This document shows positions 10,157 to 54,293 of a DNA stretch of 64,000 nucleotides, one piece after another. The DNA is from Verrucomicrobiia bacterium. Lineage in GTDB: Bacteria > Patescibacteriota > Saccharimonadia > Saccharimonadales > JAGQNK01. The stretch covers positions 53,800 to 117,799 of the forward strand of contig DATHJY010000003.1 of NCBI GenBank assembly GCA_035489575.1. Reading direction: 5' to 3'. A program made the translations under genes and the position numbers. The notes beneath the pieces are model-generated. The model was not told where the DNA came from. It saw only the letters and a program-made list of their open reading frames with translations, and ran no database searches. Position 1 is the stretch's first letter; the number at the start of each line of letters is the position of its first letter.

Positions 10157-10220
10157 TTTGCTAAGGCGGCCTTGATGTAACAGATGTAATCTGTTAATAT
10201 AGCGGAGTTTAAGCAAACGT

Positions 10221-10297
10221 GGGCCAGTAGCTCAGCTGGTTAGAGCACCTGCCTCTTAAGCAGGGTGTCGAGGGTTCAAGTCCCTCCTGGCCCTCCA
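10221..10297 (+). tRNA. tRNA-Lys (anticodon CTT), CCA encoded
   Basis: cloverleaf: acceptor gggccag/ctggccc, D-arm gctc..gagc, anticodon stem cctgc/gcagg with loop ctCTTaa, T-arm gaggg-ttcaagt-ccctc, then tcca. Confidence 0.9.
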
Positions 10298-10301
10298 GAT
10301 A

Positions 10302-10331
10302 AAAAGACCTACCGAAGCGTAGGTCTTTTTA
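10302..10331 (+). terminator. rho-independent terminator after tRNA-Lys
   Basis: agacctac-cgaagc-gtaggtct hairpin followed by ttttt. Confidence 0.6.
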
Positions 10332-10467
10332 TCTGGTTGATTATCGAGAGACTTGAACCCGGGAGGGTGAGGACAGCCCGGTGGCTGTCCGAATTTTCCA
10401 TGCTTGGCCTCACACAAAAATGCTTGAAGTAGCGAGTCCCACTGAGGGCTCGGCGCTCCAAAACACT

Positions 10468-11559
10468 CTAAACTGGTCGACTCTCCGCAGGAACCTCCAG
10501 GCTTTCCGGCTTGCCGTTTCTGTTCAAGATCATGCCGGCTTGCTGCAGGAAAAATGCGCCAGGGAGACATCTGAGCTCGTTCATAGGCAGATCCGGATAC
10601 CAGGTACGCATCATTTCTAGCACGTGAGTAGTACCGGTTTCTAGGCGGATACCAAGCGCAGCAGACCAACCCAAAATAGTAGCGGTCTGGACACGCGCCC
10701 AAAAATTAATGAGCTCCAGGTCTACTTCGCTGCCCGTTTGTTCGTGATATGCTGTCGCAGCGCTCTTAACGGCTTCTCCCAAACCTAGCGCCGCCAGATG
10801 TCGGAGCTCTCGCTCTGGACTGCTCGGCTGGGTAGCCCCAAAGTCGATGACGCCGACAGGCACGTAGCACGGCTGATCGACGGAGCCGCTAGTGGTAAAA
10901 GTTAAATTGTTCGGACGCAGATCGCTATGACCAATAATCGGTCGAGGTTCCACGCCGTCAGGAAAATAGGCCAAGTGTTCTTGGGTCAGATCTTCCACGA
11001 TGCCAGCGAGCCTAGGGACGCCCATTTGCTGCAAAAAATCGGCGTTCATACTCAATCGGTAAAGCCTCTCTGTTCTGTCAGCAAATAGCAAAGGCTCGTC
11101 ACCGACGAGCTCGAAAAACTTGCCTGGGGTGATTGTTTGAGCCAACCACGCGACAAAGCTACCGATTTTGGTACCGAGCTCTTGCTGCGCCACTGGATCA
11201 AGCTGGTAGTAGCGGTTCAGCTGATCCGCGGTAACCACATCGCCCTCCACATAAGTCGATACCACAAAACCCGTACCGTCATCGTCCGTGTCGGTTTCGA
11301 TGAACTGTGGCACATGCAGAGGCGGCTCGCACGCTGCGCTGTCGAGTTCGTCGAGCATCATGGCTTCATGCCATGAGTGATGCCGCCCTCTGTCTTTATC
11401 GCGCAGCAACTTTACTACTACGCGCTCGCCGTCCCGCTGGCCAAAATGAACCGCCCCGTACGCCCCGCTAGCATCAGAGGGTTGGTCGAAAGACACCCCA
11501 AACCACGACTCCAGATACGCGATATGTGCTGCTTCGGAAGCCATGCCTGTAGTCATCAA
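10468..11559 (-). CDS. aminoglycoside/choline-kinase-like phosphotransferase (APH) family protein
   Basis: Brenner-type catalytic loop HSDLRPNNLTF and VIDFGAT (DFG-like) motif; kinase-like N-lobe VVVKLLRD. Confidence 0.6.
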   Translation of the reverse strand: MMTTGMASEAAHIAYLESWFGVSFDQPSDASGAYGAVHFGQRDGERVVVKLLRDKDRGRHHSWHEAMMLDELDSAACEPPLHVPQFIETDTDDDGTGFVVSTYVEGDVVTADQLNRYYQLDPVAQQELGTKIGSFVAWLAQTITPGKFFELVGDEPLLFADRTERLYRLSMNADFLQQMGVPRLAGIVEDLTQEHLAYFPDGVEPRPIIGHSDLRPNNLTFTTSGSVDQPCYVPVGVIDFGATQPSSPERELRHLAALGLGEAVKSAATAYHEQTGSEVDLELINFWARVQTATILGWSAALGIRLETGTTHVLEMMRTWYPDLPMNELRCLPGAFFLQQAGMILNRNGKPESLEVPAESRPV

Positions 11560-11655
11560 CCCAGAGCCATTTTCATTTCTCTATTCTAGCAACTACAACG
11601 GTGGCGACACGGTAATCATATTCGGCTTCATCGATACCCATGGTCAGCTGTACTA

Positions 11656-12192
11656 GTGTTTTTCGCGTCTAAGCTTCGCAACCTCTCGTACATAGAGGTA
11701 AACTTCGATAGAAGGTGTTCCACCTACGGGCAACTTGGCCCTCCATTCAAAAAGCTCACTCGTAAAAGTGGGCTTTTTGAATGTTATGATTTAGATATGC
11801 ATAAAGCACAAGTTGATACGCTAGACCTACGGCAAGCCATCGAAGCATCGTGGCAACTCGATTCGGCTTATGAACATATAGAAGAAAGGGGCAACCCATC
11901 CCTGGGGCAGTGCCATGTTACGGCACTTGTCGTACATCACTACTATCCAGAAACCAGGATTGTTGAAGGCGAAGTGCAAACCGGCAAAGGTTTAGAAAAA
12001 CATTTCTGGAATATGTTCCACATAGATGGTCACGACTTGCACCTCGATTGGACTTGGCAGCAATTCCCACACGGTTCAACGATTAAAAGTTGGAAAGTGC
12101 GTGCAAAAGACGACATAAATAATAGTCAAGATACTACTGATAGATTCAAACGACTATTGCGCAGAGTTAAGTATGAGCTAAGTAAACTTTAG
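11656..12192 (+). CDS. hypothetical protein
   Basis: 178-aa ORF (GTG start; internal ATG at 11797 possible); His/Trp-rich conserved-looking core; no known motif. Confidence 0.4.
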   Translation: MFFASKLRNLSYIEVNFDRRCSTYGQLGPPFKKLTRKSGLFECYDLDMHKAQVDTLDLRQAIEASWQLDSAYEHIEERGNPSLGQCHVTALVVHHYYPETRIVEGEVQTGKGLEKHFWNMFHIDGHDLHLDWTWQQFPHGSTIKSWKVRAKDDINNSQDTTDRFKRLLRRVKYELSKL

Positions 12193-12210
12193 TTTTTAGC
12201 AGCGCTCACT

Positions 12211-12252
12211 TTGACATTAAGTACTACCAGGTGTACTATATAAAGTACTATG
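12211..12252 (+). promoter_or_regulatory. sigma70-like promoter (TTGACA-17-TACTAT) with triple GTACTA operator repeats (12-bp spacing) for yefM-yoeB module 1
   Basis: TTGACA 12211-16, -10 TACTAT 12234-39; GTACTA at 12221, 12233, 12245 overlapping the -10 and ATG; resembles the E. coli yefM TGTACA operator. Confidence 0.5.
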
Positions 12253-12504
12253 AATGTTACATCTATCTCCAAGTTTCGTAAGGATACTAAGGGTTATTTT
12301 GATAAGGTCATTGATGACAAAGACGTTCTTCTTATAACGCGCAACGATGGCCAGACGGTTGTTGTAATGTCTTTAGATGAATACAACTCTAAGGCCGAGA
12401 CCGATTACCTAAACAGCAGCCCTGATAACCGAAAACATCTGGAGAAATCCATTGCCTCACTGCACGCGGGCAAGACTGAAAAGCACCACTTAGTAGAAGA
12501 ATAG
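12250..12504 (+). CDS. yefM: Phd/YefM-family antitoxin
   Basis: 84 aa; SISKFRKDTKGYFDKV...ETDYL YefM signature; ends 1 nt before yoeB. Confidence 0.8.
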   Translation: MNVTSISKFRKDTKGYFDKVIDDKDVLLITRNDGQTVVVMSLDEYNSKAETDYLNSSPDNRKHLEKSIASLHAGKTEKHHLVEE

Positions 12505-12505
12505 C

Positions 12506-12766
12506 ATGGCTCGTATTATAGCTTTTACCCCAGAAGGGTGGGACGACTACCAATTTTGGATGAATCAAGACAGAAAAACCCTCAGAAAGTTACATAAACT
12601 TATTGCCGACACGCAAAGGGACCCGTTCAATGGTCTAGGCAAGCCAGAACCTCTCAAAGAAAACTACGCAGGGTTTTGGTCGCGCCGCATAGATGAAAAG
12701 AATAGATTCGTTTACGCAGTTACAGAGAAAGAAATACAGATCATCAGCTGCAGGTTTCATTATTAG
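12506..12766 (+). CDS. yoeB: YoeB/Txe-family toxin (ribosome-dependent mRNA interferase)
   Basis: 86 aa; WDDYQFW...RDPFNGLGKPEPLK...SRRIDEKNRFVY...CRFHY is a canonical YoeB. Confidence 0.8.
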   Translation: MARIIAFTPEGWDDYQFWMNQDRKTLRKLHKLIADTQRDPFNGLGKPEPLKENYAGFWSRRIDEKNRFVYAVTEKEIQIISCRFHY

Positions 12767-13040
12767 CAGGTATGAAGTTGATCCTGACAATATCTATGAT
12801 GGCCGTCCAGGATAGGAGCCGGCTTTTCCCATGGTTGTTATTCATCTGACGTGAACACAGAATACGCCTAAACATCTTTCTCCTCCAAGTCTGCGAGGTA
12901 GACTTTGCCGTTATGATACTCCATGCCGAGGTCAACCAATCTGGCATATAATAAGATTAAATCTTCAATGAGATCGTCGATAGGCTGGGGTTTCAAAAAA
13001 GTATATGGTGCCAAGAAAAGAACTGAAAGACTTCAGTTCT

Positions 13041-13178
13041 GGGGACTTGAACGGGCATGCCCTGTGGGCATTCCCCGCCCTTGGTTTTTGAGCTGTGCTC
13101 AAAAATGCCCGTATGCAAAAGTAATTTTCTTATGCCGGGCAGGGCAAGTCCCTCCTGGCACTCCAATTCGGTTATGCT
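13041..13178 (+). repeat. ~135-bp repeat copy A with terminal inverted repeats; 3' end mimics the tRNA-Lys 3' end (att-like / MITE-like)
   Basis: ~80% identical to 15934-16066; 5' ggggacttgaac is the inverse of 3' gcaagtccctcc; 3' end gcagggcaagtccctcctggcactcca vs tRNA gcaggg..ttcaagtccctcctggccctcca (15/15 core). Confidence 0.6.
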
Positions 13179-13183
13179 TAAAA

Positions 13184-13209
13184 CAGAGGTAATTTGCCTC
13201 TGTTTTTTG
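13184..13209 (+). terminator. intrinsic terminator hairpin (cagagg-taatttg-cctctg + T6)
   Basis: perfect 6-bp stem plus T-run; 25/26 identical to a second copy at 21286-21311. Confidence 0.55.
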
Positions 13210-13222
13210 ATACACTTTTACT

Positions 13223-13750
13223 ATGAAATTGATTTTTATCTATGGACCGCCTGCTTCAGGAAAGTTAACCGTTGCAGAAAAGTTGTCAGAAGCTACCGGC
13301 ATACCACTTTTTCATAATCATCTTTCCAGAGATATTGTTAAAGATATATATAGGGATGAGCTTGGAAAGCGTTATGACTTAGTAGATAAAATTAGATTCG
13401 ACGTACTAGAGTACTGTGCAAAGAATAATACTGACTTGATTTTCACTTATGTTTACGGAGGATCCTTTGACGACAATAATGTAAGAGATTTCATTAACAT
13501 AATCGAAACTAATAGAGGCAAGGTTTTGTTCGTGGAGTTAACAGCAAACGTAGAAGATTTAATAGATAGAGTTGATAATGATTCTAGAAAAAGATTCAAA
13601 AAACTTACCGATAAAGAAATAATGGCGAAGCTATCAGAGGATATGTCTAAATTCTCAATTCCGTACGTAGAGTCTCTAAAGATCAACACTTCTGACTTAA
13701 GTTCTGAAGAGGCGGCAAGCCTAATTGCCAATGAACTACGATTGGTGTAG
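13223..13750 (+). CDS. P-loop NTPase / small-molecule kinase-like protein (AAA_33 / chloramphenicol-phosphotransferase-like fold)
   Basis: Walker A YGPPASGKLTV at N-terminus; 175 aa; strongly AT-rich codon usage unlike neighbours. Confidence 0.6.
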   Translation: MKLIFIYGPPASGKLTVAEKLSEATGIPLFHNHLSRDIVKDIYRDELGKRYDLVDKIRFDVLEYCAKNNTDLIFTYVYGGSFDDNNVRDFINIIETNRGKVLFVELTANVEDLIDRVDNDSRKRFKKLTDKEIMAKLSEDMSKFSIPYVESLKINTSDLSSEEAASLIANELRLV

Positions 13751-13864
13751 CTCTTCGTTGAAACTTGGTTGCAATAAGCTCTACGGCGGCCCTCCATACA
13801 AAGAACGTCGATCTTTTCGCTACCGGTGGGCGTTTTTTGTTTGATAAAATAATCTAGCGGATCT

Positions 13865-14686
13865 TTATTTTGATTCGATCTTTTCTATCACGGCAATACA
13901 ATCCAACTGTTGAATTAGGCCATGCTTACTTCTAATGAAGCCTAGGGCAGCTTGTTGGATGACTACTGGAATATCTGGCCACTGTTTATTGAGGTAGAAT
14001 TCTACAATTGATTCCGTATCTTCAGGGTTACTGTCAATGGGGATCTTTAACTCAGACTCACTGACATGTCGGGTAATCCTTAACTTGTTAATATTTGGAA
14101 GTGCGGACACAACGTCATCAATAGTCATGGCCGAGAAGCTCTTATCAGAAAGAAGTGGTTTAAATTTCATTTTAAACATGTACGCATCGTCCTTATCACG
14201 AAGAACAATAATAAGTCGCCCCTGGGGTTTGAGAAGAGACAGCATCTTTTCTAATTGCTGGGGCCATGAGGAGCGGGGAATATGGTAGAAAAGATGGGCG
14301 GCGATTATTGCATCAAACTTTTCGTTGCTCGAGAAGTTATCGAGATCAGAAGGAGCAATCGTCACGTTAGCTCCTGGAAGAATGACATCAAATCGGCCTT
14401 TTAGTTGTCTGACTAGGTCGGTGCTTGGTTCAACCAGAGTGAGGCGAATATCTTCCACATTCTCCATCCGAGATAACGCAAGACTAAGATATTCACCATT
14501 GCCCGCGCCGAGGTCTAAGATATTAGATTCACTACCAAGGGCTTGCAAAACGTTAGAGAGTTGCTTGGCTGACATTTCTTTTTGGTTTGTATATCTCAAG
14601 AAGGTCTCAAAAGGTGATTCGTTTTTCTTGTTCTTATATTCAAAGCCACTCGATTGTTTACTTACAGTCATAGACTGATTATACAT
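13865..14686 (-). CDS. class I SAM-dependent methyltransferase
   Basis: motif I ILDLGAGNGEYL, acidic motif II (LTLVEP), motif post-I; no DNA-MTase motifs; AT-rich. Confidence 0.7.
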   Translation of the reverse strand: MYNQSMTVSKQSSGFEYKNKKNESPFETFLRYTNQKEMSAKQLSNVLQALGSESNILDLGAGNGEYLSLALSRMENVEDIRLTLVEPSTDLVRQLKGRFDVILPGANVTIAPSDLDNFSSNEKFDAIIAAHLFYHIPRSSWPQQLEKMLSLLKPQGRLIIVLRDKDDAYMFKMKFKPLLSDKSFSAMTIDDVVSALPNINKLRITRHVSESELKIPIDSNPEDTESIVEFYLNKQWPDIPVVIQQAALGFIRSKHGLIQQLDCIAVIEKIESK

Positions 14687-14706
14687 CGCTTCTCATGTCC
14701 CCCGGG

Positions 14707-14760
14707 TTGACGTACGTGAATAGTGTGTGTACAATATTGCGTACAAGGAGTTGTACAATG
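14707..14760 (+). promoter_or_regulatory. promoter (TTGACG-17-TACAAT) with triple (T)GTACA operator repeats for yefM-yoeB module 2
   Basis: TTGACG 14707-12, TACAAT 14730-35, SD aaggag 14745-50; TGTACA/GTACA at 14728, 14741, 14752 (12-bp spacing). Confidence 0.5.
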
Positions 14761-15012
14761 AAAATAGCATCCATCTCGAAGTTTCGGAAAGACATAAAGC
14801 GCTATGTTGACGAAGTCGACCAAGATCAAGAGCCGTTAGTGGTAACACGCGGGGATAATGTTTCCGTCGTTGTGATACCTCTCAACACTTTTAACTCCTA
14901 CTCAGAAACTGACTACCTACTGCGCAGTCCAGCCAATGCCCGTCGCTTGCTAAAATCAGTGGAGAGCGCCCGTGCAGGCACTGTCGAGGCTCACGAACTC
15001 ATCGAGGAATAG
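14758..15012 (+). CDS. yefM: Phd/YefM-family antitoxin (second copy)
   Basis: MKIASISKFRKDIKRYVDEV...ETDYLL; the 14695 track ORF is an upstream extension; ATG 14758 has an SD. Confidence 0.8.
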   Translation: MKIASISKFRKDIKRYVDEVDQDQEPLVVTRGDNVSVVVIPLNTFNSYSETDYLLRSPANARRLLKSVESARAGTVEAHELIEE

Positions 15013-15015
15013 CCG

Positions 15016-15276
15016 ATGAGCCGAAGACTTACTTTCACAGCTCAAGCCTGGGAAGACTACCTTTATTGGCAAGGGCACGATAAACAGCTGCTAAAAAAGC
15101 TTAACCAACTACTAAAAGATTGTCAGCGAGACCCGTTGGCTGGGATTGGCAAACCCGAACCGTTGAAAGGCGATCTGTCAGGTGCATGGTCCCGCAGAAT
15201 CAATGATGAGCATCGTCTAGTGTATATCGTTGCCGACGAAGAAATAAGAGTCTCCTCCTGCCGCTACCATTATTGA
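15016..15276 (+). CDS. yoeB: YoeB/Txe-family toxin (second copy)
   Basis: WEDYLYWQ...RDPLAGIGKPEPLK...SRRINDEHRLVY...CRYHY. Confidence 0.8.
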   Translation: MSRRLTFTAQAWEDYLYWQGHDKQLLKKLNQLLKDCQRDPLAGIGKPEPLKGDLSGAWSRRINDEHRLVYIVADEEIRVSSCRYHY

Positions 15277-15354
15277 GGCGCGAATCTTAGTTGCGATAGC
15301 GTCTACTATGGCCCTCCAAAACAAGAGCTCCCTTCCCGGAGTTCTTTTTTTGCT

Positions 15355-15930
15355 ATGATAATAGAAATGCATGCCGATATTTTTAGGTGGTTTGCCGCGG
15401 TCGCTTTTTTAGGCTATTGGTCTACGGTCACGTTTTTATTAGCTCATTGGCCACGCAATAGATCAAAAAGCCTTAGTGACCATATCGCCACAGGAAAGAA
15501 ACAAATCAACCTGCTTCTTATCGTAGTGACAATAGAAACTTCTTTGTATGCCCTCTACTTTTATAATTGGTTCATTCCTACTTTTGGCATGTCGGCAATT
15601 TTCACATGTTTGATTACGATTGCTCTCATAACTCATTTAGCGACATTCGTGTTTCCAAGCACTCAGGGTAGGGTCAAAAGGACGCACTGGCTTGTGTCGT
15701 ACATAACAGCGCTTCTATTTATTCCATCTGCGTTATTACTAATTGCGCAATCAAACATACCACTAGCTGGGAGGTCGGCCGTAGTTGCTGCATTAATAAC
15801 TATGGTAGGCATTTCTTTGGGGCTATATGCGACATCACTTTTTCGCAGACACATACTCATTGTCCATTGCACATATATTTTTTCACTGCAGCTAGCTGTA
15901 GTATTTATATCGTTTTTAGAAGTGTCGTGA
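15355..15930 (+). CDS. hypothetical polytopic membrane protein
   Basis: 191 aa, ~5 hydrophobic helices. Confidence 0.45.
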   Translation: MIIEMHADIFRWFAAVAFLGYWSTVTFLLAHWPRNRSKSLSDHIATGKKQINLLLIVVTIETSLYALYFYNWFIPTFGMSAIFTCLITIALITHLATFVFPSTQGRVKRTHWLVSYITALLFIPSALLLIAQSNIPLAGRSAVVAALITMVGISLGLYATSLFRRHILIVHCTYIFSLQLAVVFISFLEVS

Positions 15931-15933
15931 TCG

Positions 15934-16066
15934 GGACTTGACCGGGAAGATCTTGTGGCTGTTTCCCGCCGTTGGCTTTGAGCTGTGCTCAAAAATGCCT
16001 GTATGCGAAAGCATTTTTCTTTCGCCAGGCAGGTCAAGTCCCTCCTGGCTCCCCAAAGAAAATACA
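15934..16066 (+). repeat. ~135-bp repeat copy B with an 11-bp terminal inverted repeat and tRNA-Lys-like 3' end
   Basis: 5' gggacttgacc / 3' ggtcaagtccc (perfect 11-bp TIR); 3' ggcaggtcaagtccctcctggc shares the 15-nt core with tRNA-Lys; ~80% identical to copy A. Confidence 0.6.
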
Positions 16067-16117
16067 CCTGCATGTCCGGTATTCTCTTTATTAAGCAATA
16101 GTATCAGAGGTATTTCT

Positions 16118-16156
16118 GCGAGCTGGGAACAAAATGGGTGTTTGTTCCCAGCTCGC
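16118..16156. terminator. 16-bp perfect hairpin between convergent genes (bidirectional terminator candidate)
   Basis: gcgagctgggaacaaa-atgggtg-tttgttcccagctcgc. Confidence 0.45.
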
Positions 16157-16179
16157 TGGTATGGCTTTCTTTCGTGGGG

Positions 16180-16785
16180 CTAGCTGGCGAGACCGTTGCG
16201 AACGCTCTCTAACACTTCCTCGGGTGACAGGTTGGACGTGTCGATGACTGTGGAATTGAACCACTCACGGCTCAATGTGATGAGTTCGTGCTCCATTGCC
16301 ATGAAGAGGTCTGGGTCGGTGAGGATGAGCAGGTCTTCGGTGGAACTCCAGGGAGCTTCGCGAAGCCGTGCGTTCAGCCGTGCCTTTCGGCTCTCGACGC
16401 TCGCGGTGAAAACGAACGAGGCGTCGAACTGCGGGTGCAGAGGGAGGTATGACTCAAGCAGTTTCATCAGACCGGTGGTGCCACGCACGCGGTGGATGGC
16501 GAGGGAGCGCAGCAGGATCGTTGATTCCTGGATCGTGTTGACCTCGGGCTTGTTGAAGGCCCTGATGTCTCCCAAGATGGCCGCGGCGTACATCACGCCC
16601 AGTACTTCGGGGTCGAACGCCTCCCGACGTCGCAGCGAGTCGGCGAAGTGGTAGATGGCGTTGTTGGGTCCCAGGGCGTTCCGGCGAACCTCCCAGGGTG
16701 AACTCTCGCGGGCAAAGCTGGCAGCGACGGTGGTCTTGCCAGCCAGATCCATGCCCTCCACGTGGACGTAACGAGGGATCATGAT
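16180..16785 (-). CDS. thymidylate kinase-like (dTMP/nucleotide kinase family) protein
   Basis: P-loop VEGMDLAGKTT (cf. IEGxDGxGKxT) with an LID/NMP-like region; GC-rich; likely start MIPRYV at 16785 (track ORF extends to 16899). Confidence 0.5.
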   Translation of the reverse strand: MMIPRYVHVEGMDLAGKTTVAASFARESSPWEVRRNALGPNNAIYHFADSLRRREAFDPEVLGVMYAAAILGDIRAFNKPEVNTIQESTILLRSLAIHRVRGTTGLMKLLESYLPLHPQFDASFVFTASVESRKARLNARLREAPWSSTEDLLILTDPDLFMAMEHELITLSREWFNSTVIDTSNLSPEEVLESVRNGLAS

Positions 16786-16989
16786 CCTCTTTTCTCGGTT
16801 TTCAATCAGCCGTGCGGCTACCAACTTGACAAACAAAGCCAATGACGGGATTATACGCAACAAATAGGTTTGACGCAATGGACGAAATATGTATTGCATA
16901 TGATATCTTACCCCTGTATACTGTGCCGGAACGATCCAAGATGGGTGGCTCGTTTTTTTGGACCTTCACAACCGAATTTGGAGGCTTAT

Positions 16990-18552
16990 GTGTCAGGCGG
17001 TATCGCCCTGGTAACCCCCTTCACCAAGTCCCATCGCACCGCCGAAGAGACTTTGGCGCTGGGGTACCTCGCTGCCGTTTTGCGTCATGCCGGACATGAT
17101 GTCTCTGTCGTTGATGGCTGGCTCGAAGCGCTCACCCTCGAAGAACTCGTCGATCGCATCGGCGCTGATGGACCCCCGGCCCTGGTCGGGATGTCCTGCT
17201 ATCAGTCCAACCTGCATCAGGCTGAACAAGTCGTACAGGCCCTCCGGGCTCGCTACGGCGATATCCCCGTGATCTGTGGCGGCTACGGCCCCACGTTCCA
17301 CGCGGAGTTCTTCCTGAAGGCCGGTTTCACCGTCGCTGTCATCGGCGAAGGCGAACACATCATCGTCCGTCTGGCGGAAGCGCTTATGAACGGGACCGAC
17401 CTCGGTTCCATTCCGAGCATTGCCTTCCTCAAGGATGGCCAGATGATGGAGACACTGCGGGCGGAACCGATCGTGGATCTGGACGAGATACCTTTCCCGT
17501 CCAGAGACACGGTGGGGCACGCCATTACGCGACGGAACTTCGTCCATGTCTGTACTTCACGCGGCTGTGAGGCGCACTGCAGCTTCTGTTCCATCTTCGC
17601 CTTCGCGGCCGGTGGATCCAGCAAGCTGCGTTGGCGTCACCGTGGTATCACGAACATCGTTGATGAACTCGAAGTCTTGCACCGCGAGTTCGGTGTGAGC
17701 GCCTTCAAGATCGTCGACGACAGCTTCATCGAACCGCCACGTGACGAAGCGTGGGCCGAAGCGTTCCGGGACGAGATCCTGGGCCGCGGGCTCACCATTC
17801 GGTTCCGTACTCAGGTGCGTGCCGACCGGCTCACTCCGGACATTGTCCGGGCACTCAGTGAAGCCGGTTGGTTCTCGACTGCGGTCGGCATCGAAAACGC
17901 GGCGCCAACCGCCCTCCGCCGGATGCGCAAGTTGGCATCCCCGGAAGACAACGAGGTAGCCCTCCAGCTCCTCGAAGCGCACGGCGTCTACGTCCAGATG
18001 GGCATGATCCTGTTCGACCCGGACACTACTCTGGACGAACTGGAGATCAACTTGGGGTTCCTGCGGCGCAACCGCTGGCCCTTCACTAAGGGGATCTTCA
18101 CCGAGATGTACGCCGCCGAAGGCACGCCGTTCACTGGACGGCTCGGCCGACGCGGACTGCTCGTCACGGCGAACGCCCAGAACTACAGCTATGAGGTTCA
18201 GGACCCGACGGTCCGGCGAGTGTATGAGATGCTCAAGTCCTGGCACCGTGCTCACAGCACGGTCTATGACTGGGTGATCGACTCACTCACCGCACCCAAG
18301 GTTTTGCCTGACGTTGCTTTTCGCGGGGCGCATGCTCTGTGTCGCCAGCTTCAGGCTATGGATCTTCGGTTTCTCGAGACTGTGCTCAGTCGTGTCTCGG
18401 AGGCTGCAATCCCCAGCGAAGACAGTGAGTTCGTAGCAGAATGGATTCGCACCGCGGAATCGTTCTACGTCGGCATCGAGGAAGCAATTGCTCGTCTCTA
18501 TGCAGACATCGGACTCCGGTACGAAGCTGTTCCCAACCCGTTCCTCACGTAG
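16990..18552 (+). CDS. B12-binding domain radical SAM protein (class B radical SAM, methyltransferase-like)
   Basis: N-terminal B12-binding Rossmann region (IALVTPF...LGYLAAVLRHAGHDVSVVDGW...ICGGYGPTF). CxxxCxxC in CTSRGCEAHCSFC. GC-rich. Start modelled at GTG 16990 after ggagg. Confidence 0.75.
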   Translation: MSGGIALVTPFTKSHRTAEETLALGYLAAVLRHAGHDVSVVDGWLEALTLEELVDRIGADGPPALVGMSCYQSNLHQAEQVVQALRARYGDIPVICGGYGPTFHAEFFLKAGFTVAVIGEGEHIIVRLAEALMNGTDLGSIPSIAFLKDGQMMETLRAEPIVDLDEIPFPSRDTVGHAITRRNFVHVCTSRGCEAHCSFCSIFAFAAGGSSKLRWRHRGITNIVDELEVLHREFGVSAFKIVDDSFIEPPRDEAWAEAFRDEILGRGLTIRFRTQVRADRLTPDIVRALSEAGWFSTAVGIENAAPTALRRMRKLASPEDNEVALQLLEAHGVYVQMGMILFDPDTTLDELEINLGFLRRNRWPFTKGIFTEMYAAEGTPFTGRLGRRGLLVTANAQNYSYEVQDPTVRRVYEMLKSWHRAHSTVYDWVIDSLTAPKVLPDVAFRGAHALCRQLQAMDLRFLETVLSRVSEAAIPSEDSEFVAEWIRTAESFYVGIEEAIARLYADIGLRYEAVPNPFLT

Positions 18553-18572
18553 GACCCGACAGAGGAGATGCA

Positions 18573-19751
18573 GTGACAGATACCACCAGCACGCCGGTCG
18601 TGCTCTCGCCCCGAGGCGGCATTCCGCCCCAGATCGAGAACATCGGCTGGACGCTCGGCAATGCGTGTCCCTACCGGTGCCCGCACTGCTACTCCACCAT
18701 CGTCCGTACCGCCAGTCTGAACATGACGACGGCTCACGTCGATCGTGTGGTCAGTGAGCTGGCGAGCATCGGCGTCCGTACCGTCAATCTGGGTGGCAAC
18801 GAGCCGCTCTACACCAGCGGTCCGAACGCCAAGGACACGGTGCTGCCGCACATCATCAAGTCGCTGTATGGCGCCGGCATCGTCGTGGGTCTCACCACGG
18901 CCGGCATCACCATGCAGTACATGTACAAGCATCACCGTGACGCGGTGGAGTTGCTCAACGACTGCGACATCAGCCTCGACAGCCCGTTCCCGGAGGAGCA
19001 CAACCGCAACCGCGGTGCCGCTCTCTACCCTCGGGCGCTTGATGCGATCCGCATCTGTCGCGAGCTCGGCATCGACCGCACTATCGTCATGTGCGGCATG
19101 AACTGGAACCTGTCGGAGAGTCACCTCAAGGCGCTCGTCCAAGCGGCGCGCGAGCAGGAGACCTTCATTAGGATCAACTTCATGAAGCCGACCGAATCGC
19201 AGCACATGGATCTAGTGCCAAGCCCGGCGGATTTCTACGCCGCGTGTGAGTACCTGTTCCGTCACTGCGACATCATCGAAATGGGCGAACCACTTGGTTC
19301 GGCTATATCCGGTGCGAAGTCCCGTGGCTGCCCTTGTGGCACGAAGTCGTTCCGGATCCACTCGATGACCGCCGACGGCAAGCTGCCGGTCAGCCCGTGC
19401 GTCTACGCCCACCAGTACAAGGTGGGAGACCTCCTGACTGACAGCCTCTACGACATCGTGCGCACCCCGGAGTTCCAGGCGTTCCGCCAGCGGCGACACG
19501 ACCCGGATTCCATCGCGGAATGCCATGGCTGTGAGTACGTCGAGGAGTGCCGGGGCGGCTGCGCCGCGCGTGCCTACCTGTGGCGGGAGTTCACGGAAGG
19601 TGGCGGTTCGATCGTGACCGATCGTGACCCCTACTGCCTCAAGGACTTCGGAGACTCCGGTCTCACGCCGCCGGCCAACATGGTCATGCAGGACAAGGTG
19701 CTCGTTCACCGCGACTACCTCTGCACGGTCATCGGGAAGCCGAAGGACTAA
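18573..19751 (+). CDS. radical SAM / SPASM-domain protein (peptide- or cofactor-modifying maturase-like)
   Basis: N-terminal CPYRCPHCY (CxxxCxxC); C-terminal Cys-rich SPASM region CHGCEYVEECRGGCAARAY plus CPCG...SPC; GTG start 18573 with gaggag SD; 21-nt gap after the upstream rSAM. Confidence 0.75.
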   Translation: MTDTTSTPVVLSPRGGIPPQIENIGWTLGNACPYRCPHCYSTIVRTASLNMTTAHVDRVVSELASIGVRTVNLGGNEPLYTSGPNAKDTVLPHIIKSLYGAGIVVGLTTAGITMQYMYKHHRDAVELLNDCDISLDSPFPEEHNRNRGAALYPRALDAIRICRELGIDRTIVMCGMNWNLSESHLKALVQAAREQETFIRINFMKPTESQHMDLVPSPADFYAACEYLFRHCDIIEMGEPLGSAISGAKSRGCPCGTKSFRIHSMTADGKLPVSPCVYAHQYKVGDLLTDSLYDIVRTPEFQAFRQRRHDPDSIAECHGCEYVEECRGGCAARAYLWREFTEGGGSIVTDRDPYCLKDFGDSGLTPPANMVMQDKVLVHRDYLCTVIGKPKD

Positions 19752-19839
19752 CCCCAACCCATCACTGTAGGGGCCGAGAAAGCCTCAAGCCGACTCGGCC
19801 CCTACCTCAACCTTTTATTCTCTGCTACCATATCTCCTT

Positions 19840-20202
19840 ATGACACATTCTCATCATCTCGCCCAAGCCTTGGGCTTTATAGGCAAAAAAGTAACCGTCG
19901 AGGTGGACCGGCCATTGTATTCGGAGCATCCCAAGCACGGCTTTGTGTATGAACTAAATTATGGCTTTGTACCCGGGACCGAATCTGGCGACGGGGAAGA
20001 ACTAGACGTGTATATTATGGGGATCGATAAACCAGTCGAGGCATTTGAAGGTACGTGCGTGGCCGTGGTCCACCGTACCAACGACAACGATGACAAGCTT
20101 GTTGTGGTACCCAATGGCGCTGGTGTGCCGAGTGACGCGGATATCCGAGCAGCAACGCACTTTCAGGAACAATTCTTCCAGTCGAAAATCTTTTTTACCT
20201 GA
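19840..20202 (+). CDS. inorganic pyrophosphatase-like protein (short)
   Basis: HPKHGFVYELNYGFVPGTESGDGEELDVYIMG resembles the PPase YPxNYGFIPxT..DGDPLDV core; only 120 aa. Confidence 0.45.
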   Translation: MTHSHHLAQALGFIGKKVTVEVDRPLYSEHPKHGFVYELNYGFVPGTESGDGEELDVYIMGIDKPVEAFEGTCVAVVHRTNDNDDKLVVVPNGAGVPSDADIRAATHFQEQFFQSKIFFT

Positions 20203-22943: not shown

Positions 22944-23378
22944 ATGATGTATGAGATAGCCCAAGGTGTCGTGTTCCGGCGACACGAAACAGGAATTGAT
23001 TTTTTGGTGCTCAAACGTGCTCCTGAAGACGGAGGATTTTGGCAAGCAATTACCGGTACTATCGAGGACGGCGAGCTTGCTCTAGAAACGTTGGAGCGAG
23101 AGCTTATGGAAGAGGCTGGCATAAGCGAAGCTATACATATAAGTGACATGCTTGAAGAATACTTTTGGGAAATACCAGAACAGAACATGAAAGGCAAGGA
23201 CCACGTATATGCGGTTGAGGTAGCGGTAGATATGGAAGTGGTACTTGACCCTACGGAACATACCGAGTTCCGCTGGCTCCCACTTGCCGATGCCCTGGAG
23301 CTGCTTAGGTACGACGGCAACAAAAAGACTATGCAGCTCGTTTCAGACTATGCAGCCAGACGAGCGATGATGCCATGA
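22944..23378 (+). CDS. NUDIX hydrolase
   Basis: Nudix box GGFWQAITGTIEDGELALETLERELMEEAGI. Confidence 0.7.
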   Translation: MMYEIAQGVVFRRHETGIDFLVLKRAPEDGGFWQAITGTIEDGELALETLERELMEEAGISEAIHISDMLEEYFWEIPEQNMKGKDHVYAVEVAVDMEVVLDPTEHTEFRWLPLADALELLRYDGNKKTMQLVSDYAARRAMMP

Positions 23379-23872
23379 AGAAGATTTTGGTTACGGGCAA
23401 CGCTGGCTCGGGTAAGTCGACGCTGGGCAAAAGCTTGGCGGCATTTTCGGGCTTGCCCTATTTCGGGATGGACCAAATTGTCTGGAAGGAGAACTGGCAA
23501 AGGGCGTCAAAGGAAGAGGAGCAGAAAAAGGTTGCCGAGCTTGTCGCTCGGGAGGCTTGGATTATCGACGGTGTCTCGTACGAGGTAATGGCAGCAGCGG
23601 ACACGATAGTCTTTCTGGACATGCCTAGAAGCGTTTGCTTTTGGCGAGCGGCCAAGCGCAATCGAAAGTATTTGTTTGCGTCTCGTCCAGGGCTGCCGGC
23701 TAGTTGCCCTGAAATTCTTATTGTCCCCAAGCTCATTAAAATTATTTGGCGATTCCCTAAAAGAGTACGGCCAAATATTTTGGCAGAAAAAGACAGAAGA
23801 GGTACTGACTTTATCCATATCCGATCAGACAGGGATTTAAAGAAATATTTAGCCCAAAACAGCAAAGAATAG
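23375..23872 (+). CDS. P-loop NTPase, adenylate-kinase/topology-modulation-protein-like
   Basis: Walker A TGNAGSGKSTLGK; WIIDGVSYEV motif; 4-nt overlap with the NUDIX stop. Confidence 0.6.
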   Translation: MKKILVTGNAGSGKSTLGKSLAAFSGLPYFGMDQIVWKENWQRASKEEEQKKVAELVAREAWIIDGVSYEVMAAADTIVFLDMPRSVCFWRAAKRNRKYLFASRPGLPASCPEILIVPKLIKIIWRFPKRVRPNILAEKDRRGTDFIHIRSDRDLKKYLAQNSKE

Positions 23873-26601: not shown

Positions 26602-27120
26602 GTGAAGGTTATATTTGTTGGTCACCCGGGCTCGGGCAAGACATATGCTGCGGACTTGTTAAGCAAAAAAGGGCATCTGAAGAAAATTGATATTGATAGT
26701 CTTTTTGATGAACATCCCTTGCATTTTTTCTTAAGAAATTCTTATAAAAAAGCTTTGCATGCGTTGCTAAAAAACGAAAACGAATGGGTTATTGATGGCT
26801 ATCATGGGCACCGGATGCCCGATAGTATTTGGACGGATTCAGATGTTATTGTGTTTTTAAATTTGCCAAAAGTTGAGCTAAAACAAAATGTATTTAACCG
26901 TTATAGAAATAAAAAGAGTGATAAAGATTTCTCGCACTGGCAGTCTACTTTTGTTAATGTACTGAAAAATCTAGGGCAGATTTATTTGCTAGACAAGCCG
27001 TTGGCCCGGAATGTCAGCAGAATAAGATCACTCACCCAAAACGATGGTAGGCTGGTGGAGCTAAGATCCAGACAGGATCTGGATGAGTTTATTGATACTT
27101 TGGTTCGCGAAAATAAGTGA
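26602..27120 (+). CDS. P-loop NTPase, adenylate-kinase/topology-modulation-like
   Basis: Walker A VGHPGSGKTYAADLL; WVIDGYHG. Confidence 0.55.
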   Translation: MKVIFVGHPGSGKTYAADLLSKKGHLKKIDIDSLFDEHPLHFFLRNSYKKALHALLKNENEWVIDGYHGHRMPDSIWTDSDVIVFLNLPKVELKQNVFNRYRNKKSDKDFSHWQSTFVNVLKNLGQIYLLDKPLARNVSRIRSLTQNDGRLVELRSRQDLDEFIDTLVRENK

Positions 27121-27214: not shown

Positions 27215-27637
27215 CTACATGGTGAACTCGTTCCAGGACATGAGGTTGTACCTGATCATGCCGACGTAGGGGACGAGCTGGTTGTCGCTGTCGATCCAGG
27301 CCCGGACGTAGCGCGTCGCTCCGTCTTCTTGGACGAGGTTGATGAGCTCGTACTTGTAGCCGGCGGCAGCCAGATGGGCGGCGGCGGTGACGAGGTTCGC
27401 CAGGTTGTCGGGGTAGTAGAGAGAGATCTTCTGGCCGATCTCACTGGCTGCCTCTCGTTTCCGCTTGCTCAGAAACCACTGCTTCCTAAAGTCCCACAGG
27501 TGGTTGCGGGCTTCCTGCCCGAACCGCATGAGGAAGTCGAGGGAGCGGTAGAAGACATCCGTGTTGCGTGCGACGTCTTCGGGCACGGTGGCCAGGGTCG
27601 CTACCCGCGGGATCTCGGGTGGGGTCCAGGTGCTCAA
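27215..27637 (-). CDS. hypothetical protein (GC-rich)
   Basis: 140-aa ORF, GC-rich codon usage, no motif. Confidence 0.4.
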   Translation of the reverse strand: MSTWTPPEIPRVATLATVPEDVARNTDVFYRSLDFLMRFGQEARNHLWDFRKQWFLSKRKREAASEIGQKISLYYPDNLANLVTAAAHLAAAGYKYELINLVQEDGATRYVRAWIDSDNQLVPYVGMIRYNLMSWNEFTM

Positions 27638-42925: not shown

Positions 42926-42952
42926 GGGTAGTGCTCCAGTCTCTCTGGTGTT

Positions 42953-43005
42953 TCGAATGCGAATAGCAGGACACAACATCCGGTGATGTCCTGTTACTCG
43001 CATTC
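42953..43005. promoter_or_regulatory. ~20-bp imperfect palindrome in divergent promoter/5'UTR region
   Basis: cgaatgcgaatagcaggaca-N13-tgtcctgttactcgcattcg, 25 nt upstream of the minus-strand start. Confidence 0.35.
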
Positions 43006-54283: not shown

Positions 54284-54293
54284 CTTTGTTGGG

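What the first reader, a model, noticed from the sequence alone, without database searches (positions are those of the whole stretch)
10221..19751. tRNA-Lys-anchored, integrase-less mosaic of three compositionally distinct gene cassettes
Downstream of tRNA-Lys(CTT) lie an APH-family kinase, an unknown 178-aa protein and two diverged YefM-YoeB modules, all mid-GC. They are followed by an AT-rich P-loop kinase plus SAM methyltransferase cassette and a membrane protein. Next comes a GC-rich cassette with a dTMP-kinase-like gene, a B12-radical SAM gene and a radical-SAM/SPASM gene. There is no integrase or transposase. The cassettes are punctuated by tRNA-3'-end-like repeats. This looks like serial accretion at one tRNA hotspot from donors of different GC content.
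Basis: partly seen in the sequence, partly recalled or inferred. Interest (0 to 1): 0.65.

Follow-up and report, generated by a model that had tools for sequence, protein, structure and literature searches.

The report
Integrase-less gene-cassette array behind tRNA-Lys
Behind a lysine tRNA gene of an uncultured Saccharibacteria-like bacterium lies a 5.8-kb stack of small imported gene cassettes, each ending in a copy of the tRNA's tail, with no recombinase gene nearby; the GC-rich genes next to it belong to a conserved operon and are not part of the stack.

Summary
The observation mostly holds. tRNA-Lys(CTT) lies at 10221-10297. No integrase or transposase was detected in the 64 kb. The GC steps are real.

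The tRNA tail recurs five times in direct orientation:
- Two 22-nt copies (13144, 16034). Each ends a conserved 117-nt structured 'A' element. They split the region into two ~2.9-kb modules.
- Three 9-10-nt copies (11736, 13787, 15309). Each follows a conserved 'B' arm.

Each module carries its own YefM-YoeB pair (50% identical).

Other Saccharibacteria loci support small mobile units at this tRNA:
- The A element sits directly behind an identical tRNA-Lys with no cargo (L018; L023's tRNA is 95% identical).
- A 72%-identical methyltransferase plus B site sits behind tRNA-Lys in L025.

Best reading: serial site-specific insertion of small non-autonomous cassettes, recombined in trans. This resembles cis-mobilizable elements (CIMEs) or tycheposon remnants.

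The third, GC-rich 'cassette' is not supported:
- No repeat bounds it.
- B12-rSAM, SPASM-rSAM and the flanking pyrophosphatase form an operon that co-diverges in four relatives.
- One relative shows the same high GC in the rSAM genes but not in the pyrophosphatase.

Verdict: a new variant of a known kind. The A element is the unusual part.

The parts
10221..10297 (+). tRNA-Lys(CTT). Its last 22 nt (10276-10297) are repeat copy DR1.
   Evidence: ARAGORN. Rfam tRNA 72 bits. 100% identical to the tRNA-Lys of Saccharibacteria MAG locus L018.
10295..10336 (+). Intrinsic-terminator-like hairpin directly after the tRNA. It is followed by an inverted T-arm fragment at 10346-10360.
   Evidence: Inverted repeats I2 and I13. 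Terminator scan. Similar to the terminator after the A element of L023.
10468..11559 (-). Cargo gene: APH-family phosphotransferase. Segment 1 has host-like GC (0.537).
   Evidence: PF01636, 2e-12. Composition.
11700..11783 (+). B1 site: diverged B arm, then TGGCCCTCCA (11736-11745), then a terminator hairpin (11744-11783).
11797..12192 (+). Cargo gene: YunG-family protein. The mechanical ORF starts at 11656.
   Evidence: PF24585, 3.4e-17; the match starts at residue 56 of the long ORF.
12250..12766 (+). YefM-YoeB toxin-antitoxin pair #1 (12250-12504 and 12506-12766). A sigma-70-like site lies at 12211-12239.
   Evidence: PF02604 1.1e-16 and PF06769 1.5e-38. Promoter scan.
13042..13166 (+). 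A1 element. Closing stem GGGACTTG/CAAGTCCC, three main hairpins (plus a short 3-bp stem-loop in the consensus fold), and repeat copy DR2 (13144-13165, 19/22 identical to the tRNA end). A hairpin with a T-run follows at 13180-13208.
   Evidence: Repeat families D1-D3. Fold z-score -3.0. Covariation. Covariance model 152 bits.
13223..13750 (+). Cargo gene: P-loop kinase (AAA_18-like). It has the lowest GC of the region (0.35).
13760..13796 (+). B2 site: B arm CTTGGTTGCAATAAGCTCTAC, then CGGCCCTCCA.
   Evidence: (family D5).
13865..14686 (-). Cargo gene: class I SAM methyltransferase.
   Evidence: Pfam. 72-76% identical homologues in Saccharimonadales. The homologue in L025 lies behind tRNA-Lys and ends at a B site.
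14758..15276 (+). YefM-YoeB toxin-antitoxin pair #2 (14758-15012 and 15016-15276). A sigma-70-like site lies at 14707-14735.
15282..15346 (+). B3 site: B arm, then TGGCCCTCCA (15309-15318), then a terminator (15323-15346).
   Evidence: Nearly identical to the B site of L025.
15367..15930 (+). Cargo gene: membrane protein with no known family (187-191 aa).
   Evidence: No Pfam, NCBIfam or PADLOC hit.
15933..16056 (+). A2 element with repeat copy DR3 (16034-16055, 20/22 identical to the tRNA end). This is the right end of the array.
   Evidence: Covariance model 137 bits.
16180..16899 (-). NOT part of the array. Nucleoside-monophosphate-kinase-like P-loop gene, probable start at 16785. GC 0.61.
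   Evidence: No Pfam hit itself. Family of 214 representatives, 25 of 40 sampled members hit Thymidylate_kin. Not an orthologue of the Tmk genes of the relatives.
16990..19751 (+). NOT part of the array. B12-binding radical SAM gene (16990-18552) and radical SAM/SPASM gene (18573-19751). GC 0.61-0.63.
   Evidence: Pfam. Conserved together with the pyrophosphatase in L013, L014, L016 and L017.
19840..20202 (+). Small pyrophosphatase-like gene (GC 0.50). It is an operon partner of the two rSAM genes, not the 'native gene after the island'.
   Evidence: PF00719. 56-60% identical and adjacent to the rSAM genes in four relatives.

Best explanation
Window 10298-16056 is a tandem array of small, non-autonomous integrative cassettes. 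They were inserted one after another by site-specific recombination into the 3' end of tRNA-Lys(CTT). The host is a Saccharibacteria-like (candidate phyla radiation, CPR) genome.

HOW IT WORKS
- Each incoming unit carries its own copy of the tRNA tail plus a terminator. The tRNA therefore stays intact.
- The previous tail is pushed downstream. The newest unit lies next to the tRNA.

TWO SITE TYPES
- 'A' sites have 15-22 nt of identity starting in the T-loop. A 95-nt arm with a conserved fold precedes them. They bound two ~2.9-kb modules.
- 'B' sites have 9-11 nt of identity at the extreme 3' end. A ~27-nt conserved arm precedes them. They subdivide the modules into units of 0.6-1.5 kb.

SHOWN
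- The repeats, their orientation and their statistics.
- The atypical composition of segments 2-5.
- The conserved, covarying fold of A.
- A alone behind tRNA-Lys in two other genomes.
- The same methyltransferase + B unit behind tRNA-Lys in a third genome.
- Absence of any recombinase gene in 64 kb.

INFERRED
- A tyrosine recombinase encoded elsewhere (in the genome or on a helper element) acts in trans on these sites.
- The two YefM-YoeB pairs, which may have their own promoters (sigma-70-like sites upstream), hold the array in place by post-segregational killing.

The GC-rich block 16180-19751 is not part of the array. It belongs to a conserved B12-rSAM / SPASM-rSAM / pyrophosphatase operon.
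For: REPEATS
- Three copies of the 16-nt tRNA-tail core and four of GGCCCTCCA. All are direct and all lie within 10276-16055. They far exceed chance.
- Spacings are 2868 and 2890 nt.
- Each copy is followed by a hairpin with a T-run.

INDEPENDENT ARRIVAL OF THE MODULES
- A1 is 81.5% identical to A2 and 83% identical to the copy in L018.
- The two toxin-antitoxin pairs are only 50% identical.
- So the two modules arrived separately; they are not a local duplication.

THE A FOLD
- 94% of cells are paired.
- 9 of 40 pairs show compensatory changes.
- 0 of 500 shuffles reach this, and slid controls are far lower.

OTHER GENOMES
- L018 and L023: tRNA-Lys, terminator, A element with a perfect 22-24-nt repeat, and no cargo.
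- L025: tRNA-Lys, a 187-nt unit, a 20-nt repeat matching that genome's own different T-arm, the methyltransferase homologue (72%; GC 0.38 against 0.48 for the locus), then a B site almost identical to B3. No integrase in 20 kb.
- L027: a homologue lies 2 nt from the tRNA-Val 3' end.
- The cargo methyltransferase has relatives at 72-76% identity. The flanking core MidA methyltransferase has none above 45%.

GC-RICH BLOCK.
Against: - No recombinase was found, so mobility in trans is inferred only.
- No empty site or circular junction was seen. Every assembly of this strain has the same order.
- Close relatives for true synteny tests do not exist in the collections.
- B-site identity with the tRNA is only 9-11 nt, and B1 is diverged.
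- The small L025 unit lacks the A-type closing stem, so the A architecture is not universal.
- Segment 1 (APH) is compositionally host-like.
- Only four A copies support the covariation. The closing stem of one of them (L023) was fixed by the search pattern.
Confidence: 0.5

Rival explanations
1. Scars of ordinary large islands. Each tail copy marks a former integrase-bearing island or prophage that has since lost its integrase and most of its genes by deletion. The present small segments are inert leftovers and the A and B arms have no current function.
For: - Partial tRNA copies and degenerate elements in islands are well documented (bioRxiv 10.1101/2020.12.28.424599; PMC5704250).
- No integrase in 64 kb.
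- DR2 and DR3 carry 2-3 mutations in the acceptor part.
Against: - Random deletion would not leave complete A elements with compensatory base changes in four copies from three genomes.
- It would not leave B arms ~80% conserved across three genomes.
- It would not leave the same methyltransferase + B unit behind tRNA-Lys in L025.
- No integrase fragments were seen.
Confidence: 0.2
2. Folded single-strand attachment site. The cassettes move as single-stranded DNA. The A element folds so that its closing stem (GGGACTTGA/TCAAGTCCC) re-creates a duplex copy of the tRNA T-loop and T-stem. A host recombinase exchanges this stem with the tRNA gene, as with CTXphi attP(+) at dif or integron attC x attI. 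The array would be a tRNA-anchored, integron-like cassette system.
For: - Structure is conserved while sequence is not in hairpins 1 and 3; 9 pairs covary.
- The closing stem is invariant and equals the tRNA core.
- The arrangement armL - ~95 nt - armR joined to the displaced tRNA tail at the right end of each unit is what single-strand integration predicts (own knowledge of CTXphi and integrons).
- Cassette-sized units, toxin-antitoxin modules and no nearby integrase.
- Analogous inverted-T-arm sites with unrelated interiors in L019-L021.
- G.U pairs favour the + strand, 6 against 2.
Against: - No IntI-like or other recombinase was found.
- The integron R''/R' consensus is absent.
- Genes lie in both orientations, some with promoter-like sites upstream.
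- B sites and the L025 unit show no such fold.
- Only four sequences.
- The inverted arm in L019-L021 was required by the search pattern.
Confidence: 0.12
3. The A element is a small structured RNA gene or 3'-UTR element linked to tRNA-Lys. Its tRNA-like tail serves RNA processing or stability, not recombination. The cargo was inserted around it by other means.
For: - Covarying fold with a mild + strand G.U bias.
- It always has the same orientation as the tRNA and is followed by a terminator-like hairpin (window copies, L023).
- It lies directly behind tRNA-Lys in L018 and L023.
Against: - No Rfam family matches.
- No promoter-like site upstream of A1 or A2.
- Two diverged copies, each at the end of a cargo module with its own toxin-antitoxin pair, mean that A travels with cargo.
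- In L025 the repeat matches the local, different T-arm, as expected for a recombination core.
Confidence: 0.08
4. One reading: three cassettes, including the GC-rich kinase / B12-rSAM / SPASM block, were all added at the tRNA hotspot from donors of different GC, and the native chromosome resumes at ~19840.
For: - Sharp GC steps at ~16.1 kb and ~19.76 kb. The block is the most GC-rich 3.7 kb of the window.
- In one strain the SPASM gene carries a 26-nt frameshifting deletion.
Against: - No tail repeat after the block.
- The pyrophosphatase at 19840 is an operon partner of the rSAM genes in four relatives, with parallel divergence.
- The same gene-specific high GC occurs in L013, with a normal-GC pyrophosphatase between the GC-rich genes.
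- Many other GC3-rich genes are scattered in the window.
Confidence: 0.05
5. No site-specific recombination. The cassettes are exchanged between Saccharibacteria by DNA uptake and homologous recombination, using the conserved tRNA, A and B sequences as anchors.
For: - The tRNA (77 nt, 95-100% identical between genomes) and A (117 nt, ~80%) could serve as homology arms.
- No recombinase nearby.
Against: - B identity (9-11 nt plus a 27-nt arm) and ~80% identity in A are poor RecA substrates (own knowledge).
- This does not explain why every junction carries a tRNA-tail copy in direct orientation.
- It does not explain why the repeat tracks the local T-arm.
Confidence: 0.05

Closest known systems
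Cis-mobilizable elements (CIMEs) and tandem accretion at tRNA genes (ICESt1/CIME of Streptococcus thermophilus; IME_Sag2603_tRNAlys)
   Same: - The elements keep attL and attR but lack integration and transfer genes.
- They sit in tandem at the 3' end of a gene, often tRNA-Lys.
- Newer arrivals integrate into the regenerated site (PMC5704250).
   Different: - The units here are 0.6-2.9 kb, with no trace of conjugation or integrase genes.
- Two distinct site types alternate.
- One site has a conserved, covarying multi-hairpin fold.
- The host is a CPR bacterium, for which the paper searches run here returned no description of such elements.
Tycheposons and the tRNA-seeded genomic islands of Prochlorococcus
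   Same: - Successive integrations at one tRNA push older elements further in.
- Partial tRNAs and degenerate elements punctuate the island.
- The genomes are streamlined and have few classic mobile elements (bioRxiv 10.1101/2020.12.28.424599).
   Different: - Tycheposons are defined by a tyrosine recombinase and a replication module. None is present here.
- The attachment identity here is 9-22 nt, against about 40 nt there.
Integron gene-cassette arrays (attC sites)
   Same: - Cassette-sized units.
- Each ends in a structured site of ~60-140 nt whose fold is conserved more than its sequence.
- Toxin-antitoxin cassettes stabilise the arrays.
- Composition is a mosaic (own knowledge).
   Different: - No IntI, attI or Pc.
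- No RYYYAAC/GTTRRRY boxes.
- Genes lie in both orientations, some with promoter-like sites upstream.
- The anchor is a tRNA gene.
- B sites are unstructured.
CTXphi attP(+), a folded single-stranded site used by host XerCD
   Same: - An inverted repeat ~90 nt apart can fold to mimic the chromosomal target duplex.
- The element itself encodes no integrase (own knowledge).
   Different: - The target there is dif, not a tRNA.
- CTXphi is a replicating filamentous phage. No phage or replication genes are present here.
- The mechanism is untested here.
YefM-YoeB type II toxin-antitoxin modules on islands
   Same: - Antitoxin upstream of the toxin, with tight spacing.
- Sigma-70-like site upstream of each pair.
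- Pfam scores above the cut-offs.
   Different: Nothing unusual in the modules themselves. The notable point is one diverged pair per A-bounded module.

Membership tests
tRNA-targeting integrative element / genomic island | Inserted at the 3' end of a tRNA gene, which stays intact | tested here: met
   Intact tRNA-Lys at 10221-10297; cargo starts at 10298.
tRNA-targeting integrative element / genomic island | Flanked by direct repeats of the tRNA 3' end (attL/attR) | tested here: met
   16-22-nt copies at 13144 and 16034; 9-10-nt copies at 11736, 13787 and 15309.
tRNA-targeting integrative element / genomic island | Encodes its own integrase | tested here: not met
   No Phage_integrase, Recombinase, rve or DDE hit in any ORF of at least 90 aa in 64 kb.
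tRNA-targeting integrative element / genomic island | Absent from the same site in related genomes (empty site) | tested here: inconclusive
   L018 and L023 have tRNA-Lys followed only by an A element, but their flanking genes differ. All assemblies of this strain carry the array.
Cis-mobilizable element (CIME) | Retains both att sites but has lost integration and transfer genes | tested here: met
   Repeat cores of 15-16 nt are intact at both ends of each module; no such genes.
Cis-mobilizable element (CIME) | Derived by decay of an ICE or IME and mobilised by an element integrated in tandem | not testable with these tools
   No remnants of conjugation or integrase genes and no helper element in the window.
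Tycheposon | Hallmark tyrosine recombinase plus replication module (primase/helicase) | tested here: not met
   None in the array or in the window (same calls as for the integrase).
Integron cassette array | IntI integrase with attI and Pc next to the array | tested here: not met
   No integrase. The upstream genes are PP2C-like and MidA methyltransferase.
Integron cassette array | attC sites with RYYYAAC...GTTRRRY boxes and a folded bottom strand | tested here: not met
   The A ends read GGGACTTGAAC...(T)CAAGTCCC and do not fit the boxes (read). The fold is conserved, but the G.U bias favours the + strand.
Integron cassette array | Mostly promoterless cassettes in one orientation | tested here: not met
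   APH and the methyltransferase are on the - strand. Both toxin-antitoxin pairs have sigma-70-like sites (10 of 12 matches) upstream.
YefM-YoeB type II toxin-antitoxin | PhdYeFM antitoxin followed by YoeB toxin, both above the Pfam gathering scores | tested here: met
   60.8 and 131.2 bits; 69.9 and 135.4 bits.
Known RNA families (Rfam 15) for the A element | Match at or near a family's gathering score | tested here: not met
   Best hits are 14-18 bits against cut-offs of 41-229.
Thymidylate kinase (gene 16180-16785) | PF02223 match or sequence similarity to solved Tmk structures | tested here: inconclusive
   The protein itself has no hit. 25 of 40 family members hit PF02223. The family profile hits cytidylate kinase at 1.2e-4 and Tmk at 6e-3. 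Similarity to the Tmk of the relatives is limited to the Walker A motif.
B12-binding radical SAM and radical SAM/SPASM enzymes | Domain pairs above the Pfam cut-offs, plus a CxxxCxxC motif | tested here: met
   PF02310 + PF04055 and PF04055 + PF13186. Motifs CEAHCSFC and CPYRCPHC read. No NCBIfam equivalog reached its cut-off.

The most novel reading that the evidence does not exclude
Saccharibacteria possess a dedicated, tRNA-Lys-anchored gene-cassette system. Units of 0.6-3 kb end in one of two conserved attachment sites. The A site works as a folded single strand whose closing stem mimics the tRNA T-arm duplex, in the manner of integron attC or CTXphi attP(+). A chromosomally encoded recombinase captures and shuffles the units in trans. 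In effect this would be an integron analogue in an ultra-small symbiotic bacterium.
Probability: 0.12. Interest if true: 0.85.

Novelty: new variant of a known kind. Interest (0 to 1): 0.5.

Why it matters
CPR and Saccharibacteria genomes are tiny and are thought to carry few classic mobile elements. How they exchange genes is poorly understood.

A recurrent array of small cassettes at tRNA-Lys would give a concrete, testable route for gene flux in this phylum. The array has no integrase. It has two conserved site types, one of them a structured 117-nt element also found on its own behind the tRNA in other genomes. It also gives two sequence models (A and B) with which such arrays can be mined.

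There is a methodological caution as well. A sharp GC step is not proof of foreign origin. Here the GC-rich genes are part of a conserved operon whose high GC is shared with a relative.

Tried and rejected
- Protein-seeded scans of genome contigs and metagenome contigs with the flanking MidA methyltransferase found nothing.
- The best MidA homologue is 45% identical. A 41% homologue on a long contig (L005) shows no synteny, so the 'tRNA directly followed by the 19840 gene' test could not be done on close relatives.
- The contig break inside the tRNA in SRR7026570 (L002 ends at 10250, L009 starts at 10268) is not evidence of an empty site. The tRNA is 100% identical in another Saccharibacterium, so assembly graphs branch there.
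- Rfam, searched at permissive thresholds, gives no family for A.
- Viral contigs show no A, B or tRNA-tail pattern.
- Plasmid and phage collections show only generic YoeB similarity.
- PADLOC gives only weak or generic hits. PDC-M51A/B for the rSAM and the kinase is a lead, not a membership.
- B sites do not share a fold beyond the downstream terminator.
- The 187-nt unit of L025 lacks the A-type closing stem.
- The covariance model of A finds no further copies in the window.
- tRNA-tail-like hits at 56020-56077 lie inside an ORF and look like chance.
- The island kinase and the low-GC AAA_18 gene at 26602 share only the P-loop.
- No small excisionase-like ORF was recognised between YoeB#1 and A1.

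Full report
WHAT IS THERE

ARAGORN and Rfam find one tRNA in the window, tRNA-Lys(CTT) at 10221-10297. Downstream lie these genes:
- an APH-family gene, 10468-11559(-);
- a YunG-family gene (ORF 11656-12192; probable start 11797);
- YefM-YoeB pair #1, 12250-12766;
- an AAA_18-type P-loop kinase, 13223-13750;
- a class I SAM methyltransferase, 13865-14686(-);
- YefM-YoeB pair #2, 14758-15276;
- a membrane protein with no known family, 15355/15367-15930;
- a P-loop gene, 16180-16899(-);
- a B12-binding radical SAM gene, 16990-18552;
- a radical SAM/SPASM gene, 18573-19751;
- a 120-aa pyrophosphatase-like gene, 19840-20202.

In fact the second pair follows the methyltransferase. No integrase or transposase domain was found in any ORF of at least 90 aa anywhere in the 64 kb.

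COMPOSITION

The window averages 0.514 GC. I compared each repeat-bounded segment with 400 length-matched segments from the rest of the window.
- Segment 10298-11745 (APH) is host-like at 0.537.
- Segments 11746-13166, 13167-13796, 13797-15318 and 15319-16056 have GC 0.433, 0.362, 0.444 and 0.430. Each lies in the lowest 0-2%.
- Block 16057-19760 has GC 0.600, above every matched segment.

So the discontinuities are real.

The window is heterogeneous elsewhere too. At least ten other genes have GC3 of 0.76-0.87. All those checked lack any significant Pfam domain.

REPEATS

The 16-nt core of the tRNA tail, TCAAGTCCCTCCTGGC, recurs in direct orientation at 13144 (1 mismatch) and 16034 (0 mismatches). 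The spacings are 2868 and 2890 nt.

Each of these copies is the 3' end of a ~117-nt element. I call them A1 (13042-13166) and A2 (15933-16056). Each starts with GGGACTTGA, the complement of the tail core. Each folds into a closing stem around three main hairpins, with z-scores of -3.0 to -5.8.

The last 9-10 nt of the tRNA, (T)GGCCCTCCA, recur at 11736, 13787 and 15309.
- These are the only occurrences in the window apart from the tRNA itself. All are on the + strand. Chance expectation is 0.24 per strand.
- Each is preceded by a related ~27-nt 'B' arm, CTTRGTTGCRATAG..TCYAC.
- B1 and B3 are followed by a terminator-type hairpin.

The tRNA and DR2 are also followed by a hairpin with a T-run. 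DR3 is followed about 60 nt downstream by a perfect 16-bp hairpin.

The repeats therefore define two A-bounded modules of about 2.9 kb, each with its own YefM-YoeB pair. They further divide into five A- or B-bounded segments of 0.6-1.5 kb. No tail copy follows the GC-rich block.

WHOSE GENOME

NCBI labels the source a 'Verrucomicrobiae bacterium' MAG. The evidence points to Saccharibacteria instead:
- The tRNA-Lys is 100% identical to that of a Candidatus Saccharibacteria MAG, L018.
- The cargo methyltransferase is 72% identical to a Saccharimonadales protein.
- The rSAM genes have their nearest named relatives in Candidatus Paceibacterota.

Four independent assemblies of the same strain (ENA, JGI and two Logan runs) reproduce the order. 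They also span both edges of the GC-rich block, so the mosaic is not an assembly chimera.

EVIDENCE FROM OTHER GENOMES

A pattern scan for the A element found it in L018. Another scan, which fixed only the closing stem, found it in L023.
- In both loci an intact tRNA-Lys(CTT) and its terminator are followed within about 50-75 nt by an A element.
- That element ends in a perfect 22-24-nt copy of the tRNA tail.
- There are no genes in between.

The four A copies are 68-83% identical. A1 is as close to the L018 copy (83%) as to A2 (81.5%).

Their consensus fold is well supported.
- 94% of cells are paired.
- 9 of 40 pairs show compensatory double changes.
- 0 of 500 column shuffles reach this, and slid-partner controls drop to 35-60% paired.
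- G.U pairs favour the tRNA-sense strand, 6 against 2.
- Rfam has no matching family.
- A covariance model finds no further copies in the window.

The methyltransferase has only 72 relatives. The closest long-contig one, L025 from a Saccharimonadales MAG, lies directly behind a tRNA-Lys(CTT).
- The order there is tRNA, terminator, a 187-nt unit, and a 20-nt repeat. The repeat matches that genome's own, different, T-arm.
- Then come the methyltransferase (GC 0.38 in a 0.48 locus) and a B site almost identical to B3.
- No integrase lies within 20 kb.

A 56% homologue in L027 ends 2 nt from the 3' end of tRNA-Val. L018 also carries a B site 1.8 kb beyond its A element.

Sites with analogous architecture but unrelated interiors occur in unrelated bacteria. 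They consist of an inverted T-arm, about 95 nt, and then a tRNA tail.
- Two tandem copies lie behind a tRNA-Trp in L021.
- Others lie next to HigBA-like and Fic genes in L019 and L020.
- That inverted arm was demanded by my search pattern, so it is not independent evidence.

INTERPRETATION OF 10298-16056

The simplest account is repeated site-specific integration into the tRNA tail. Each unit supplies a replacement tail and terminator and displaces the earlier one. This has been described for tandem accretion of integrative elements and cis-mobilizable elements (PMC5704250) and for tRNA-seeded islands with partial tRNAs (bioRxiv 10.1101/2020.12.28.424599).

Several points argue that the small units, or at least their sites, are functional and have not simply decayed:
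- the two modules carry diverged toxin-antitoxin pairs (50%) and diverged A elements;
- the repeat core tracks the local tRNA in L025;
- the same cargo + B unit recurs behind tRNA-Lys in another genome;
- A keeps its fold through compensatory changes.

Not shown: any recombinase, any excised form, or any empty site in a close relative. Action of a recombinase in trans is therefore an inference.

THE A ELEMENT

The closing stem of A would rebuild, in a folded single strand, a duplex identical to the T-loop/T-stem segment of the tRNA gene. The layout arm - ~95 nt - arm + displaced tail at the right end of each unit is what integration of a folded single strand would leave. This is known for CTXphi attP(+) and resembles integron attC sites (own knowledge).

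It is the most novel reading. I give it about 12%, for four reasons:
- B sites and the L025 unit lack such a fold;
- no IntI-like gene or integron boxes exist;
- genes lie in both orientations, some with promoter-like sites upstream;
- only four sequences support the fold.

The paper searches run here returned no description of a folded attachment site at a tRNA gene or of integron-like arrays in this phylum.

THE GC-RICH BLOCK

The B12-rSAM family is common in CPR genomes at 45-65% identity.

In four relatives the B12-rSAM, the SPASM-rSAM and a 120-130-aa pyrophosphatase are always adjacent, although their order and orientation vary. A thymidylate kinase always lies nearby. Identities to the window proteins run in parallel:
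- 64/64/60% in L013;
- 60/65/60% in L014;
- 56/59/56% in L016 and L017.

The pyrophosphatase at 19840 is therefore part of the same operon. It is not the resumption of native DNA.

In L013 (locus GC 0.50) the composition is as follows:
- Tmk: GC 0.59, GC3 0.81.
- B12-rSAM: GC 0.59, GC3 0.73.
- SPASM gene: GC 0.63, GC3 0.86.
- Pyrophosphatase, lying between them: GC 0.47, GC3 0.49.

This is the same pattern as in the window. High GC is thus a shared, gene-specific property. It is not the signature of a cassette added at the tRNA.

The P-loop gene at 16180-16785 belongs to a distinct family of ~200-aa proteins.
- The family has 214 representatives.
- 25 of 40 sampled members hit Thymidylate_kin.
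- The family profile hits cytidylate and thymidylate kinases weakly.
- So 'nucleotide-kinase-like' is fair, but the gene is not an orthologue of the Tmk genes of the relatives.

VERDICT

The array is a new variant of a known kind: tandem, integrase-less units flanked by tRNA tails. Its unusual traits are its very small units, its two conserved site families, and a structured site that also occurs on its own behind the tRNA in other Saccharibacteria.

Noticed in passing
window 16990-20202; loci L013 6847-10906, L014 8001-13136, L016/L017: B12-binding rSAM + rSAM/SPASM + 120-130-aa pyrophosphatase form a conserved CPR gene cluster of unknown function. A thymidylate-kinase-type gene always lies nearby, and an amidohydrolase or HSP70-like gene often does. 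No NCBIfam equivalog is reached. The B12-rSAM and the P-loop gene hit PADLOC candidates PDC-M51A (1.9e-10) and PDC-M51B (0.009).
   Followed up: partly
window 955-1464, 27215-27637, 42242-43003, 44119-44916, 48638-49186, 53070-55541, 56738-57229: Scattered genes have GC3 of 0.76-0.87, against about 0.5-0.6 for their neighbours. All checked lack any significant Pfam domain (one marginal 0.009 hit). L013 shows the same two classes of GC3. The cause is unexplained.
   Followed up: partly
window 19212-19237 and 16117-16134 (versus L003 and L008, JGI 3300020034): The JGI strain has a 26-nt deletion that frameshifts the SPASM gene. It also has an 18-nt deletion removing the left arm of the hairpin after DR3. 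Otherwise it is 99.8% identical.
   Followed up: yes
L023 1208-1226: A 19-nt copy of the 5' end of tRNA-Lys lies about 100 nt upstream of the intact tRNA. This suggests small insertions on the 5' side of this tRNA as well.
   Followed up: no
window 13182-13197 (also 10179-10194 and 43118-43133); L018 2149-2164; L023 1100-1115: The motif AACAGRGGTAATTTGC lies upstream of tRNA-Lys in L018 and L023 (a variant occurs in L025). A perfect copy sits just after DR2 in the window, where it forms the terminator-like hairpin before the kinase gene. Degenerate copies lie upstream of the window's tRNA and upstream of folD. In L018, folD neighbours the tRNA.
   Followed up: partly
whole window: The NCBI name of the source MAG is 'Verrucomicrobiae bacterium'. 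The tRNA-Lys, the A element, the cargo methyltransferase and the rSAM relatives all point to Saccharibacteria/CPR. The record is probably mislabelled.
   Followed up: partly
L021 280-640; L019 205-1095; L020 338-1563: In unrelated, mostly GC-richer bacteria a tRNA tail copy is preceded about 95 nt upstream by an inverted T-arm. L021 has two near-identical tandem 143-nt units behind tRNA-Trp. L019 and L020 have GGGGGTAAC direct repeats and an adjacent HigBA-like pair or Fic gene.
   Followed up: partly
L027 9211-10104; L025 19563-20606: A methyltransferase homologue ends 2 nt from the 3' end of tRNA-Val. An unrelated APH-family gene lies 41 nt downstream of tRNA-Arg(TCT). Small cargo genes directly behind tRNA genes may be common in Saccharibacteria.
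   Followed up: no
window 26602-27120: A second low-GC (0.38) AAA_18-type P-loop gene. It shares only the P-loop with the island kinase. A third AAA_18-like gene lies at 23375-23872.
   Followed up: partly
window 12868-13014 (-) and 13019-13040: A 48-aa acidic ORF on the minus strand, and a 9-bp hairpin abutting the 5' end of A1, lie in the 275-nt gap between YoeB#1 and A1. Their function is unknown.
   Followed up: no
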